Source: Octopus sinensis
Taxonomy: Eukaryota
Length of the DNA stretch: 64,000 nucleotides
Direction: 5' to 3'
NCBI RefSeq assembly: GCF_006345805.1
Contig: NC_043012.1
Span: 43,710,001-43,774,000 of the forward strand
The translations under genes were made by a program, and so were the position numbers. This document shows positions 1,461 to 59,091 of the stretch, one piece after another. How positions within the stretch are numbered: position 1 is the stretch's first letter; each line of letters starts with the position of its first letter. Below the pieces are notes generated by a model. That model saw only the letters and a list, made by a program, of their open reading frames with translations. It was not told the DNA's origin and did not search any database.

Positions 1461-2990
1461 AACATTTTCTTGGACAATGTTTTCTCCAGTCTTACTTTCA
1501 CTTGATTTGTGATTATCTTTTGATTTTTGTCTGAATTCTTCATTTAAAACAGAGAAACTATTGGGTGATTAAAATTGTTTTGTATGATTATATGAGAAGT
1601 CATAACTTTTAGTAGTCTTTCTAAGAGTAATCCATTCGAGGTGGGGGATAAAAAGTGAGTGGTTTCTTTGGTTTTTGTTGGCATTTGAAAAAGTTTTACT
1701 TTCAGGAAAGGAACAAATTTATTGTTCTCAAGGCAAAATTTTAAATGAGTTCGCATTTTTGACAGATCAAATAAAAATTCTCTGGAGAATTTCCAATGAC
1801 TAGTTCAAATGCGTATGCAAGGGTAAAAGGACCACAGTTGTATGGGCAAACTTGGGGATTAGTAATTTGAACCTGTTGAACTGTAGGAGTCATTGTGGCG
1901 AGTAGCGTGTTGTTATCTGAGCGGTTAGTTCTTGCGATACTGATAAATTTAAACTACTATAAACATAGACATCTCCGAAAAAATTGCTCCCATAAAATAA
2001 AATGATTACTTTTGGTATGATGGATAAATAATGTGGGGTGTGGGCTATAGGTTAGAAATTCCGTGTGAGAAAAAATGGTAGGTTGAATAGAAACGTCAAC
2101 AAACTTGTTACATGACATTTGCCCCGAAAGAAAAATGACTTCTCATATTTCACATCAAACGTTCTCAACCAAAATGTTCCCTTGCTCATTGGCTCAGAGG
2201 AATGGAAAATCAACTTTTTCAGCTTCTTTTCTGTTTTTGTCCTCAGGAATGAAATTTCCTTCTTCTTAAAGTTCATCAGACAATTACACAAATAACTGAA
2301 ATGATTTTCAGAAGAACATACCTGTTCAAGGTTACTCAAATTCTTCTGAATGTCTGCACCAAGCGATATTAATTTTGAACTTTGGTGTTGAATAATGGCG
2401 TCGATTATGTGAAATAAATTGCTCTCACCAATAAATTTTAACTTTTGAAGCAATGAATCGTCAGGCTGTGATGTACACACATTGGTATATTTGATGCAAG
2501 CTCTTCATGTTTTATCTGCTGTCGTCTGCAGGTATCCAGAAATGATAAATGGCTCTTGATTTTAGCGCGAAAACAATTAAGTTAACTGATAGAAATGTCG
2601 ATTTTTCATTTTTATATTCGTACTTGAATGGTACAAAGTCCATTGTCCCAGGAGTTGGCTCAACACTAGGGTCTAGTGAAACTTACAGGGCTGACAAGCC
2701 AACTGTGAAATGGAATAAAACACAAAATCTGTAATTTTTACTACGATTTTCCTTAAGACACTCACCAGTTTAGGTAGCTACCTGAATTTCTAAACGTTCC
2801 AATTCTTATTCGGTATAACATAAAATCAATCATCTCAATCTACTTGATTTTGATAATTTATAAAGATTGACATAACTCTTCACGAAGGTAAATAAACAAT
2901 AAAAAGAGCGCGATGCGATTTGTAATAGAGATTGTTTATCTAACGGTTTGAACAATATTTCAACAGATCGTCTGTCTTCTTCAGGTTCAA
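1461..2990 (-). mobile_element. Possible 5' region (pLTR plus N-terminal coding remnants) of a Penelope-like element
   Basis: Starts on the minus strand at a hammerhead next to an (AT)n tract. It is followed by Lys/Leu-rich ORF pieces 2052-2480 and 1544-1756 reminiscent of PLE N-termini. No RT motif seen. Confidence 0.35.
2948..2990 (-). ncRNA. Minimal type-I hammerhead ribozyme
   Basis: Minus strand: TTGAAC-CTGAAGA-A-GACAGA cga TCTGTT-GAAA-TAT-T-GTTCAA. 6-bp stem I, hairpin stem II, palindromic AATATT at stem III. Confidence 0.8.
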
Positions 2991-3984
2991 TAAATATATA
3001 TATATATATATATATATATATATATATATAGTGATTGTTAGTTAGTTATATATACATATATGTATATATTTAGTGATTGTTCTTCACAAATATCAAATGT
3101 GTATGTCTTTGACTATAGATATGAAGGTTGGCGCCAGAATTAATTATGCTTCAGATGTTTTCTTAATGCAGTAAATAATTCTGTGTTTTACTCATTGAAT
3201 TTTCTTTTATGACTTAGTGTGTTGTTTAATATAGGATCGAATGCCTTATTCGATTCCAGAGCGCTTGGTATGGTATATTTTGTATATAGGTTGTAAGCAT
3301 CTCACATTGAAAAGAAAACTTCTTGTCAATCGGTTTTGATCGCTGGTTGCAACTAGACCATTTTTAACGAACAAATCAATCGAACAGTGACTGTATACGA
3401 ATAATCCACTCTCTAAAGTGAAATATATTAAGTGCAAACCACAACTTGTTTGGCACTATGTTAGCCGTAGTTGAGCAAACATATGATTAAAAGACTTCCA
3501 GATATGACCATTCTGTCTGTTTGGGATACTGTATATGTAGCAACGCATCGAATGACACTGCCTATTCAAGACAGTCGGGTGTTATTTGAAGGAAGTTGAG
3601 TGTCAATGTCTTCTAGGTCTTGAGACAACGTTGAAGTTGTCTTCGTTGTACGAATCACATTGTTGTTGACTTGTTTTCTTAACTCTATCACGATACGCAT
3701 GGAGGCTGAAGCAGAAAGTCTTTGATGCTGAATGGCCAACTGTTGAATACATTATGTTACACAAATTTGTACGGCTGAACAATACTACATCTTAACCTAG
3801 AAATACGATAGTCTAAGTAAAAACTAAACGAAAATAATATATAAATGCTACCACCAGAATACGTGTTAGCTGGTGAATTATAGCAGCTGGATGAAAGTAT
3901 CTTGTAATTATAAAACGAACGGAACTCGGGTTCGTTTTACAACGCATCTAAAGTACAGAACACGATATCCTCTCGCGTCGTTGA

Positions 3985-4198
3985 ACGGTTTCAAATTTTG
4001 ACACAGGACCGATAACGTCTGGAAAGGAATAAGTCTATTACATCGGCTCCAGGGCTCAACTGGTACTTATATGATCGATCCCGAAAGGACAAAAGGCAAA
4101 GTCGATCCCGATGCCGTTTGATCTCAACGTAAAGTCGGGAGAAATGCTGCTAAGCATTTTGTCCTGCGCGATAACGATTCTGCAAGTTCACCCGCCTT
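3985..4198 (-). mobile_element. tRNA-derived SINE, family B (decayed)
   Basis: Minus strand head GGCGGGTGAACTTGCAGAATCGTTA...AAATGCTTAGC, body GACTTTGCCTTTTGTCCTTTCGGGATCGAT...AAGTACCAGTTGAG. Related decayed copies near 8790-8985, 27120-27215 and 61355-61450. Confidence 0.7.
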
Positions 4199-5550
4199 TC
4201 GTGCATCATTAAACTACAAGAATAAATATGCTTTAAGTTGTAAAATCTGTCTACTTAGAGATGCCATCTGAGATACTGGCCGGCCAAAATTCCAAGTAAG
4301 GCCAGTTTAGGCAATCTTTGGCTCTGATTGAATAAGACTAGCAATGATAAAAGTAAATTTACCAGTCTATTTGATAATTAGTTACAGCTAACTACATGGA
4401 ATAGTTTAATACCTGGATAACATAACGGTGATTATATTCATAGTAATCCAAGGTTAGCAATAATAGAGAAGTACTACCGATAGAATAGTAGAAATTCATA
4501 TGACTGTCATTTATTTCTTAGACTTAGAGCGAAGAAAGGTAAAATAGAATTCTGAAATCTCAATTTAGAGTAAAATTTTTACTTTAATGATTTAAGTACT
4601 TACCTCCCCTCACTGCAATTATGAGAAAAGTATTGTAGTAATCCGAATAAGTAAACCAAGGTAGTTTAATCTTGATTTAAAAACCGAGCTGTATATTATT
4701 TTCTACACTGAAGAAGTATCAAGTACGGCGTTATAATTGATGGACATAAGTTGGAATTATTATTGACTTAAATATGGTATTTTTAAACACACAATGTAGG
4801 TTGATTGATGTTTTTGCATGTTTCAGGGGTTGAATAATTAAAAAGAAAATCTGGTTAAAACAAACCAAAATTGGGAACTAAGCCCTGAACTCAGCTCACA
4901 AGAATATTCGACCCATTCCTATATTCAATAAATATAAAACTTCAAAACATTTGCATCAACTGTGAGACTATTCATGATTCATATTTCTAGTGTTAGCCAA
5001 ACTAACGGAAAACCTCTTAGTAGTTGCTGGAACTGCTAGAAATAGCAACCAAATCCCCATACTACTTTCTGTCTTGAAAAATAACATCCTGGGTTCTTAT
5101 GAAAAATTCGATGTAAACTTATAAACAGATTAATCACAGCTGGAATGCTTTTGGTCATAGGCTTACTTAATCTGGTTTGGTCTGGAGGCCATCAATAAGA
5201 ACCTTAATATTTCGTTCTAGTAAACAACTGAAATCCTACATCATTAATATAAACATTTTAAACAAGAATGGTAGCATATTACAATGAGGTTCTGCTGTTT
5301 ATTCTTATAGAATTTCAATTACATATGCATTCCTGATACGTAGTCAAAAAATATAGTCGAACATTATAAAATATATTCTTGACAAGGTCATTGACACATA
5401 GAACTAAAAAAGAAACAAAAAACCTGAAATTTTAATTCCTGCATTTTATATTCATTGCGTAATATACATTATGGGAAATGTTTCATTAAAACAAGTGTTT
5501 TATTATAAGTTTCATCTATTTTCTCTTTGTCATATCGCATATATCTTTCA

Positions 5551-5765
5551 TATTTTACTCGTATCATTCATTAGACTACAATCATGCTGGGGCACCGTCT
5601 TGAAGAATTTTAGTTGAAGGAATTATCCCCAGCACTTATTTATTTAAGCTTTATACTTATTTTATCGGACTCGTTTGTCGAGGCACTAGGCTATGGGGAC
5701 ATAACCACAGTAACATCGGTTGTCAAGTGGCGGTAAGCAACACACACAGATACAAAGACACACAT
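5551..5765 (-). mobile_element. SINE family A, 3' half
   Basis: CATGCTGGGGCACCG...ACATCGGTTGTCAAGTGG matches the reverse complement of the copy at 27858-28320. Confidence 0.75.
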
Positions 5766-58546: not shown

Positions 58547-58830
58547 TTGTTGTTACCCTGCATATATGTTTGTGTACGTGCATATACATATATATAAACA
58601 CACACATTACACTCATATTAGATATGTATGTATATGCGCGTATATATATATATATATATATATATATATATATATATGAATATGCACGTATATATATATC
58701 TATCTATATATATATATATATATGTATGTATGTATGTATATACGTATCTATATGCACCTATACATACATATATGCATATATCTAAACCTATCTATATATA
58801 TATATATATATATATATATATATATATATA

Positions 58831-58988
58831 TTCACTATCTTTAAAAGGGCCACGCCATCAAAGGAGAGTATGGTGCCAACTTCCTGAGGCAGTTACGAAA
58901 AGCTATCAAGACTAAATGCCCAGGAAACCTGGTAAAAGGGGTCTTGTTTCAGCAGGATAATGCTCCAACACCCAAGTCCTTATTTCAA
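58831..58988 (+). mobile_element. mariner internal fragment, duplicate of 60474-60630
   Basis: TTCACTATCTTTAAAAG...CAGCAGGATAATGCTCCAACACCCAAGTCCTTATTT is shared with scattered mismatches. Confidence 0.85.
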
Positions 58989-59052
58989 TATGTGAACGCG
59001 TCTGTATCGTTGACGATTTTCTTTCTCCGTCTTTCCTTCTTTGGACTTTTTC

Positions 59053-59091
59053 TATATTTCTGATGAAGAGCTCCGCTCGAAACGTGATATC
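59053..59091 (+). ncRNA. Minimal hammerhead, cleavage site probably mutated
   Basis: TATATTT-CTGATGA-A-GAGC tcc GCTC-GAAA-CGT-G-ATAT; position 17 is G and stem I is imperfect. Confidence 0.6.

What the first reader, a model, noticed from the sequence alone, without database searches (positions are those of the whole stretch)
2948..59091. Very dense, diverse set of minimal hammerhead ribozymes across the window
Seen: well-formed motifs at 2948, 16329, 18386, 21085, 21975, 22901, 27585, 39791, 48762, 52241, 52526 and 52581, and decayed ones near 6270, 17004, 32090, 36761, 37722 and 59053, on both strands. Most have a palindrome at stem III (AATATT, ACCGGT, ACATATGT, AACGTT, ACAATTGT). Apart from the 21/22/39 kb family and the 52.5 kb pair, their stem I/II sequences differ, implying many families. 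Known: PLE hammerheads have palindromic stem III and cleave as dimers. Inference: many PLE/retrozyme families contribute about one motif per 4 kb here; if the window is intronic some could cut host pre-mRNA.
Basis: partly seen in the sequence, partly recalled or inferred. Interest (0 to 1): 0.75.

Follow-up and report, generated by a model that had tools for sequence, protein, structure and literature searches.

The report
Penelope hammerhead relics, one SINE-like family
The many small self-cutting RNA motifs in this repeat-rich animal DNA are real and are likely worn end-pieces of known Penelope-type jumping genes; one very abundant family carries a tRNA-like head here and may be a short parasite that borrows the Penelope machinery.

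Summary
The motifs are real. The published minimal-hammerhead descriptor finds 4 (shuffles 0.005-0.01). My wider descriptors find 13 (shuffles 0.58; decoy cores 0.01-0.06), one per 4.9 kb.

They fall into two published Penelope-like-element (PLE) architectures: the classical 2-nt-palindrome type (4 sites) and the Hydra-clade type (about 9 sites). 11 of 12 loci lie within 150 nt of AT-only microsatellites, and a decayed Hydra-clade PLE ORF lies at 32969-34243. They are likely PLE 3' ends, not retrozymes. Cutting of host pre-mRNA is unsupported: no exon was found, almost no dimer partners exist, and no RNA ends could be tested. The scan noted the same phenomenon in another genome (e1-9846728).

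New here: 21048-22111 looks like one PLE-style insertion. Two head-to-head copies of 'tRNA-like head + (AAT)n + hairpin + hammerhead + 3' end' flank a 28S rRNA fragment, and only one copy has the 34-37 nt PLE tail. Contigs of one public run suggest roughly 10^5 copies of the 3' body, so 3 per 64 kb looks ordinary for such a genome. A Penelope-mobilised tRNA-SINE is plausible, but the head-body link rests on 2 copies plus one contig.

The parts
2948..2990 (-). Classical minimal hammerhead: stem I 6 bp, stem II 6 bp, 2-nt palindrome, predicted cut after 2954; (TA)n 9 nt upstream; best-folding copy
16329..16368 (-). U3 core variant, ACCGGT stem III, stem II decayed; lies at the end of a 24-bp tandem of partial core copies (16347-16412)
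18386..18473 (-). Hydra-type hammerhead, ACATATGT stem III, 59-nt stem II region; microsatellite 52 nt downstream of the cut site
21048..21341 (-). Copy B (inverted): tRNA-like head with T-arm deleted (21297-21341), (AAT)n 21178-21289, hairpin, hammerhead 21085-21126, 3' end without tail
21342..21760 (-). GC-rich (63%) insert containing a 28S rRNA fragment; Rfam LSU_rRNA_eukarya at 21449-21600, 95.7 bits, E 3.8e-23. The rest is assigned to 28S by inference (no Rfam hit at 21590-21790)
21757..22111 (+). Copy A: tRNA-like head with A box and B box (21757-21823), (AAT)n 21824-21942, hairpin, hammerhead 21975-22020 (predicted cut after 22015), 3' part and tail
22074..22111 (+). Optional 34-37 nt 3' tail: family copies end either at 22074/22077 or at 22110/22111; present in A and C, absent in B
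22901..22978 (-). Hydra-type hammerhead with broken base of stem II
27586..27714 (+). Hydra-type hammerhead, ACAATTGT stem III, 102-nt stem II region; (TA)n 41 nt downstream
32969..34243 (-). Decayed PLE ORF (RT thumb, linker, GIY-YIG end) in three frames; full-length homologs carry Hydra-clade motifs. Its own hammerhead is not recognisable (candidate near 32100-32200 fails)
36761..36799 (+). U3-A8 core variant with U on both sides of stem II, ACCGGT stem III
36901..36928 (+).
39707..39834 (-). Copy C: hammerhead, 3' part and tail of the A/B family (85% identical to A); different 5' side, no head
48762..48840 (-). Hydra-type hammerhead, U on both sides of stem II, ACAATTGT stem III, 52-nt stem II region
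52241..52291 (+). Hydra-type hammerhead with 4-bp stem III and 8-nt loop (the only one able to close stem III alone); (TA)n 11 nt downstream
52490..52645 (-). Tandem of two Hydra-type hammerheads 55 nt apart plus a partial third core, ending at (TA)n; stem III of the first copy equals that of the published Hydra-2_aJap

Best explanation
The 13 motifs are real type-I hammerheads and are likely the 3' pseudo-LTR ends of several Penelope-like retroelement families, left as mostly dead, 5'-truncated copies beside AT-rich microsatellites. Mechanism (from published PLE work, inferred here): the PLE protein binds RNA at the hammerhead-bearing end, nicks AT-rich DNA and starts reverse transcription 60-100 nt past the cut site. 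Most cDNAs stop early, so the piece that accumulates is the hammerhead plus a short 3' end. About 9 sites have the Hydra-clade architecture and 4 the classical one. The A/B/C family shows the optional PLE tail. At 21048-22111 one event likely copied two RNAs that each began with a tRNA-like head, joined them head to head through a captured 28S rRNA piece, and left the tail at one end only. The hammerheads would act as dimer- or protein-assisted parts of the element RNA, not as cutters of host transcripts.
For: Shown: enrichment over shuffles and decoys. Shown: match to the published min-HHR consensus and to the Hydra-clade table, where extra nucleotides flank stem II and stem III is 3-4 bp with a 0-3 nt centre; the first 52.5 kb copy has the same stem III and cut nucleotide as Hydra-2_aJap. 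Shown: 11 of 12 loci within 150 nt of AT-only microsatellites, background 0.20, P about 2e-7; 9 of 10 without A and B; CA/TG control 1 of 12. Hydra elements prefer (TA)n. Shown: PLE ORF remnant, 116 HMMER hits, four colinear tblastn pieces to an 806-aa homolog with RWR, DKT, YRDD and CxCx5C. Shown: two clusters of 3' ends 34-37 nt apart in run X1 (155+159 and 182+296 contigs), B ending at the first and A and C at the second; this matches the optional 30-40 bp PLE tail and the inverted copy with a tail at one end. Shown: core variants at 8% or more are CpG transitions and loop changes, with no compensatory pairs, as for neutral decay.
Against: No passing hammerhead is physically linked to a verified PLE ORF. 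The Hydra remnant's candidate motif fails (two-mismatch hits: 7 seen, 2.4 expected), and the PLE-like ORF piece downstream of 2954 found no homologs. The autonomous partner of the A/B/C family was not found. Stem II regions of 49-102 nt exceed those in the published table rows I saw. Part of the loose ends at 22074 are internal deletions (X11, X13), so the first end cluster is mixed. My wide descriptors and the choice of AT-only microsatellites were made after viewing the sites. No target-site duplication is visible around 21048-22111.
Confidence: 0.82

Rival explanations
1. The head-(AAT)n-hammerhead unit is not a family. A PLE end inserted once into the (AAT)n tail of an ordinary SINE, and that single composite was duplicated locally in inverted orientation.
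For: Only 2 full composites were seen, both in one locus. Copy C has the hammerhead and tail without the head. PLE ends favour AT-only microsatellites.
Against: B ends within 1-4 nt of the family's alternative 3' end. Neither copy has (AAT)n on its 3' side. A and B differ at 11 of 140 ungapped letters and by different indels. One X11 contig joins a head-like 17-mer (14 of 17 letters as in B, compared by eye) directly to 21973. The sense strands lack four-T runs (only 15% of background windows do).
Confidence: 0.3
2. The motifs are non-LTR retrozymes that make small circular RNAs from tandem arrays.
For: One tandem pair with cut sites 55 nt apart whose stem III strands can pair (-4.1 kcal/mol). 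Retrozymes are proposed PLE derivatives with many monomer copies.
Against: No 170-400 nt tandem unit with a hammerhead. 11 of 12 loci are single. The motifs are minimal or Hydra-type, not canonical with loop I-II contacts.
Confidence: 0.08
3. Some motifs are functional intronic ribozymes that cut host pre-mRNA.
For: 2984- folds stems I and II almost freely (0.5 kcal/mol penalty). The 52.5 kb pair has a cis partner. 52247+ can close stem III alone.
Against: No host exon was identified. Matching same-strand partners exist only for B+C (18.7 kb apart, 3-bp stem I each) and the 52.5 kb pair. 9 of 12 folds cost more than 4 kcal/mol. Published single min-HHRs show no cleavage, and the anole PLE hammerhead is inactive without its protein and leaves no RNA-seq ends.
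Confidence: 0.08
4. The motifs are chance matches in AT-rich, low-complexity DNA.
For: Four of the six 'decayed' sites pass no descriptor. The 3' half alone is not enriched (10 against 7.2).
Against: 4 against 0.01, 8 against 0.05 and 12 against 0.58 in shuffles; decoy cores 0.01-0.06.
Confidence: 0.01

Closest known systems
Minimal hammerheads (min-HHR) in pseudo-LTRs of metazoan Penelope-like elements (Cervera & de la Pena 2014, PMC4209133)
   Same: Type I; extra nucleotide after A9; G10.1-C11.1 (G-U in 2984); palindromic 15.2-16.2; many heterogeneous families, mostly single truncated copies; close opposite-strand pairs; U3-A8 variant.
   Different: Only 4 of 13 sites fit that descriptor. 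A tRNA-like head was not described there.
Hydra-clade PLE hammerheads (Craig et al. 2021, PMC8557442, File S2; includes Hydra-1_Obim from Octopus bimaculoides)
   Same: 3-4 bp stem III starting AC and ending GT with a 0-3 nt centre; extra nucleotide on both sides of stem II; position near the 3' end; (TA)n insertion; a Hydra-type ORF remnant is in the window.
   Different: Four window sites have 49-102 nt stem II regions, one has an 8-nt loop III and two have a U3 core. None is shown linked to an ORF.
Poseidon PAc element of Anolis (Frangieh et al. 2024, PMC11167929)
   Same: Hammerhead near the element end, two 3' ends separated by a 30-40 bp tail, AT-rich targets.
   Different: PAc is autonomous. 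The A/B unit has no ORF and begins with a tRNA-like head and (AAT)n.
Schistosome Sm-alpha/Sj-alpha SINE-like elements (as reviewed in PMC6765202)
   Same: Pol III promoter and hammerhead in one short non-coding repeat.
   Different: Those are often tandem and self-cleave from multimers. Here the ribozyme is a PLE-type minimal motif followed by a PLE tail, in dispersed copies and an inverted pair.
Octopus tRNA-derived SINEs OK/OR1/OR2 (Ohshima & Okada 1994; seen only as citations in PMC4758252, PMC4824008, PMC10886601)
   Same: tRNA-derived heads in what I infer, from the repeat landscape and recall, to be an octopod genome.
   Different: OR1/OR2 are cited as CORE-SINEs, and no hammerhead or Penelope link appeared in the passages seen. 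Identity with copy A/B could not be tested.
Animal non-LTR retrozymes (PMC7229834; bioRxiv 10.64898/2026.07.22.740005)
   Same: Non-autonomous, hammerhead-bearing, proposed PLE-derived.
   Different: No 170-400 nt tandem units here.

Membership tests
PLE min-HHR | CUGANGA / GAAANNUH core with stems I and II (published descriptor) | tested here: met
   4 sites against 0.005-0.01 in shuffles
PLE min-HHR | Palindromic 15.2-16.2, extra nucleotide after A9, G10.1 pair | tested here: met
   All 4 sites; G-C in A, B, C and G-U in 2984
PLE min-HHR | Lies in a pseudo-LTR next to a PLE RT/GIY-YIG ORF | tested here: inconclusive
   ORF piece downstream of 2954 unverified; no ORF beside A, B or C; most published copies are also single
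PLE min-HHR | Optional 30-40 bp 3' tail and inverted copies | tested here: met
   Ends at 22074/77 and 22110/11; inverted B lacks the tail
PLE min-HHR | Self-cleavage as dimer or with PLE protein | not testable with these tools
   Raw-read run X22 gave 2 reads; contigs show no RNA ends
Hydra-clade PLE | Hammerhead with 3-4 bp AC...GT stem III and flanked stem II | tested here: met
   4 hits against 0 with stem II required; 10 against 0.21 without; table
Hydra-clade PLE | Insertion at (TA)n near the hammerhead | tested here: met
   9 of 10 loci other than A and B within 150 nt, P about 3e-6; CA/TG control not enriched
Hydra-clade PLE | ORF with RWK-like, DKT, CxCX5C and C-terminal GIY-YIG | tested here: inconclusive
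   Motifs present in full-length homologs P0007 and P0011; the window remnant covers only thumb to endonuclease and is not linked to a passing hammerhead
Non-LTR retrozyme | Tandem 170-400 nt units each with a hammerhead | tested here: not met
   Only a 55-nt two-copy tandem
Non-LTR retrozyme | Abundant circular RNA | not testable with these tools
   No raw RNA reads were available
tRNA-derived SINE | Internal Pol III A and B boxes and no four-T run in the sense strand | tested here: met
   A has both boxes, 41 nt apart; B lost the B box; longest T run is 3 in both
tRNA-derived SINE | Head recognisable as a tRNA | tested here: inconclusive
   ARAGORN 0 and Rfam no tRNA; the top 2 of 4 weak phage hits lie on tRNA genes (E 0.2 and 7)
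tRNA-derived SINE | Head and body linked in many dispersed copies | tested here: inconclusive
tRNA-derived SINE | 3' end shared with an autonomous partner | not testable with these tools
   No whole genome held

The most novel reading that the evidence does not exclude
The A/B unit is a very high-copy tRNA-derived SINE whose 3' end is a Penelope pseudo-LTR (hammerhead plus tail). It would be a Pol III parasite mobilised by a Penelope-like element rather than by a LINE, seeding tens of thousands of minimal hammerheads through the genome. The 21048-22111 locus would be one insertion that used two SINE RNAs and a 28S rRNA fragment as templates.
Probability: 0.4. Interest if true: 0.68.

Novelty: new member of a known kind. 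Interest (0 to 1): 0.4.

Why it matters
The dense hammerheads are an expected by-product of PLE activity. They matter mainly as markers for annotating short PLE relics, which Rfam misses entirely here. If the composite is a true family, it adds a SINE-Penelope partnership to the known SINE-LINE ones. It would then offer tens of thousands of natural copies to ask what the PLE hammerhead is for (cleavage or protein recognition), a question left open by PMC11167929. The rRNA capture would be a clear genomic record of PLE template switching.

Tried and rejected
- Whole-genome search: no genome is held.
- Rfam: no hammerhead family among the 150 listed of 272 E-value rows (microsatellite/miRNA artefacts) and none at gathering score.
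- Pfam on 436 stop-free ORFs of 45 aa or more: only transposon domains plus four weak sub-threshold hits (NAV1 lid, pullulanase, MutL, EST1), treated as chance. Pfam gave nothing for 11 long PLE homologs.
- Word-indexed protein searches with three ORF pieces found nothing, nor did two ESM Atlas look-ups. The PLE-like ORF piece at about 1700-2650 (-) therefore stays a recalled resemblance.
- A one-defect descriptor with short stem II added no sites (4 hits, null 0).
- The 32090 site as the hammerhead of the Hydra remnant is not significant.
- MFE folding z-scores were mostly weak, as expected when the core stays unpaired.
- Small-share runs (insect and termite metagenomes) likely reflect the 28S piece and were not used.
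- Raw-read run X22 laid 2 reads and was uninformative. The 'RNA?' contigs X11 and X13 hold the family (3,056 and 2,119 pieces) but do not show transcription.
- Literature searches for a hammerhead- or Penelope-linked cephalopod SINE found none. The library lacks most subscription papers and Repbase, and Lunse et al. 2017 was not held.
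Full report
SETTING. The window is 35% G+C and carries 104 tandem-repeat rows. Pfam on 436 stop-free ORFs finds only transposon relics: non-LTR RT, mariner, pogo and gypsy-like pol. No whole genome is held. I infer an octopod cephalopod from the repeat landscape; this is recall and inference, not a test. No host exon was found, so whether the window is intronic is unknown.

OBSERVATION. I implemented the published min-HHR descriptor (Cervera & de la Pena 2014, Fig. 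S7, read). It gives 4 hits against 0.005-0.01 in 400 shuffles. My wider descriptors were written after looking at the sites. Tier A gives 8 hits against 0.00-0.05 in shuffles and 0 in the reversed window, and 0.01 with 150 decoy cores. The union gives 12 against 0.58, or 13 with the second tandem copy. All 12 'well-formed' coordinates pass a tier, three of them only without stem II. Of the 6 'decayed' sites, 1 passes. CTGANGA itself occurs 46 times against 23 expected, so more worn copies probably exist; one is at 36901.

TWO ARCHITECTURES. Four sites (2984-, 21123-, 21980+, 39831-) have the classical form: extra base after A9, 6-bp stem II and a 2-nt palindrome. About nine have a 3-4 bp stem III reading AC...GT, and three of these have U on both sides of stem II. 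That is the form tabulated for Hydra-clade PLEs in File S2 of Craig et al. 2021, where Hydra-2_aJap has the same stem III and cut nucleotide as the first 52.5 kb copy. Hydra-1_Obim, from Octopus bimaculoides, is in the same table. So the U-U closure that looked like decay is likely a clade trait. A Hydra-type descriptor gives 4 hits against 0 with stem II required and 10 against 0.21 without (one of the 10, at 33731+, is probably chance). Four sites have stem II regions of 49-102 nt, longer than in the table rows I saw.

LINK TO PENELOPE-LIKE ELEMENTS. (i) 11 of 12 loci lie within 150 nt of an AT-only microsatellite (background 0.20, P about 2e-7). Without A and B it is 9 of 10, and the CA/TG control is 1 of 12. 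In eight loci the repeat begins 11-150 nt 3' of the cut site. Hydra elements insert into (TA)n. (ii) 34243-32969 (-) is a decayed PLE ORF. An 88-aa piece found 116 relatives. Full-length ones carry RWR, DKT, YRDD, CxCx5C and a C-terminal endonuclease region, and one aligns to the window in four colinear pieces (best E 1.6e-11). (iii) The A/B/C family has two 3' ends 34-37 nt apart (below). Against: no passing motif is tied to a verified ORF, and the PLE-looking piece after 2954 found no homologs.

THE 21048-22111 LOCUS. Copies B (21341 to 21048, -) and A (21757 to 22111, +) are inverted, head to head. Each reads: tRNA-like head, about 110 nt of (AAT)n, a hairpin, the hammerhead and a 3' part. 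A has A and B boxes 41 nt apart; B has lost the T-arm. Neither has a run of four T, which is true of 15% of background windows. ARAGORN and Rfam do not call the head a tRNA; the two best of four weak phage matches lie on tRNA genes (E 0.2 and 7). Between the heads is a 63% GC insert holding a 28S rRNA fragment (95.7 bits; no hit for 21590-21790). A and B differ at 11 of 140 ungapped letters. Copy C (39834 to 39707, -) shares only hammerhead and 3' part (85%).

READS. I laid four runs on 21925-22227. Run X1 (contigs, 2,719 million letters) laid 28,804 pieces. Summed word depth was 5.7-6.5 million over the hammerhead, against about 41-56 for seven of eight listed single contigs. The tool warns that this is no copy number, and X1 may be a related species. 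As a rough figure it gives 1.1-1.3 x 10^5 copies, one per 21-24 kb, like the 3 per 64 kb here. Depth stops at 22110-22111 (182 and 296 loose ends), with a second cluster at 22074/22077 (155 and 159, partly internal deletions). B ends at the equivalent of 22073; A and C run to the far end. [quoted passage not shown] Depth over the hairpin is 2.76 million, so a large share of copies extend 5' as A and B do. Five X11 contigs show a different 5' side ending like C. One X11 contig joins a head-like 17-mer (14 of 17 letters as in B, by eye) directly to 21973. Variants at 8% or more are N7, loop II, 3' part, and CpG transitions at C11.1 (9%) and the palindrome (13%, 12%), with no compensatory pairs. 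The raw-read run gave 2 reads, so RNA ends and cleavage were not tested.

MECHANISM. Shown: the motifs, their two architectures, microsatellite adjacency, the ORF remnant, two 3' ends, the inverted pair and the rRNA fragment. Inferred: PLE protein binds the hammerhead-bearing RNA end, nicks AT-rich DNA and starts cDNA shortly 3' of the ribozyme; early truncation leaves hammerhead-plus-end relics. At 21-22 kb, both target strands likely primed on head-bearing RNAs, and a switch onto 28S rRNA joined them (four shared letters at the A junction). In the anole element the hammerhead is dispensable for insertion in vitro and inactive without protein, so a parasite could keep it as a recognition signal.

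HOST CUTTING. Stem III strands match on the same strand only for B+C (18.7 kb apart) and the 52.5 kb pair (55 nt). The cost of the active half-fold is 0.5 kcal/mol for 2984-, 2.1 for A, 3.4 for 52615- and over 4 for the other nine. Single min-HHRs showed no cleavage in vitro. Host cutting is possible for two or three sites but has no support.

LITERATURE SEEN. PMC4209133: parts 1-3 of 4 and supplement passages (one file not searched). PMC8557442: passages, section 11 and supplement rows. PMC11167929: passages and the second part of the main text. bioRxiv 2026.07.22.740005: part 1 of 5 and passages. Passages only: PMC6765202, PMC7229834 (Acropora over 6,000 motifs in 16 families), PMC6962438 (235 Rfam hammerheads in giant squid), PMC13282606 (octopus repeat annotation, 0 mentions of hammerhead or ribozyme), PMC4758252, PMC4824008, PMC10886601. 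Lunse 2017 and Ohshima & Okada 1994 were not seen. Nine searches found no hammerhead- or Penelope-linked cephalopod SINE. An earlier scan note, e1-9846728, reports the same PLE relics in another genome.

VERDICT. The SINE-like composite is the only part that may be new (probability 0.4). Interest 0.4.

Noticed in passing
window 21342-21760 (-): 28S rRNA fragment captured between two inverted retroelement copies; four letters shared at the junction with copy A.
   Followed up: yes
window about 1700-2650 (-): Broken ORF starting about 300 nt after the 2954 hammerhead. By recall it resembles a PLE N-terminus followed by a short protease-like motif; no homologs were found.
   Followed up: partly
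window 1-1400 (+), 45100-46700 (-): Two decayed non-LTR retrotransposon pieces: RVT_1 hits at 407-934; the second recognised only by recalled cysteine/histidine motifs.
   Followed up: no
window 19337-19606, 40274-41547, 60182-60484, 62755-63692: Mariner transposase remnants; 40274-41547 has 39-bp inverted ends.
   Followed up: no
window 29600-31200 (-): Pogo/Tigger-like transposase remnants (HTH_Tnp_Tc5, DDE_1).
   Followed up: no
window 56000-58100 (+): Decayed gypsy-like pol (RT, RNase H, integrase) broken by many stops.
   Followed up: no
window 5542-5735, 19809-19953, 27858-28020, 28103-28302, 31571-31939, 42544-42596, 62241-62428: Two further dispersed repeat families of 66-87% identity, SINE-like by recall, without hammerheads.
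   Followed up: no
window 6315-6525 and 19059-19167: Long inverted repeats; the first surrounds a (TA)22 run just 3' of the decayed 6270 motif.
   Followed up: no
window 16347-16444: 24-bp and 15-bp tandem repeats made of partial copies of the U3 hammerhead core and stem I.
   Followed up: partly
window 17957-17984 (+) and about 52480-52507 (-): Identical 28-letter stretch running into (TA)n, suggesting a second 3' end of the 52.5 kb family without its hammerhead.
   Followed up: partly
window 48130-48191 = 49620-49681; 58832-58985 and 60475-60628: An exact 62-bp duplicate and a 94%-identical 154-bp duplicate about 1.5 kb apart; unexplained.
   Followed up: no
window about 22615-22700 (+): Another degenerate tRNA-like stretch with box-like motifs seen by eye; not called by ARAGORN.
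   Followed up: no
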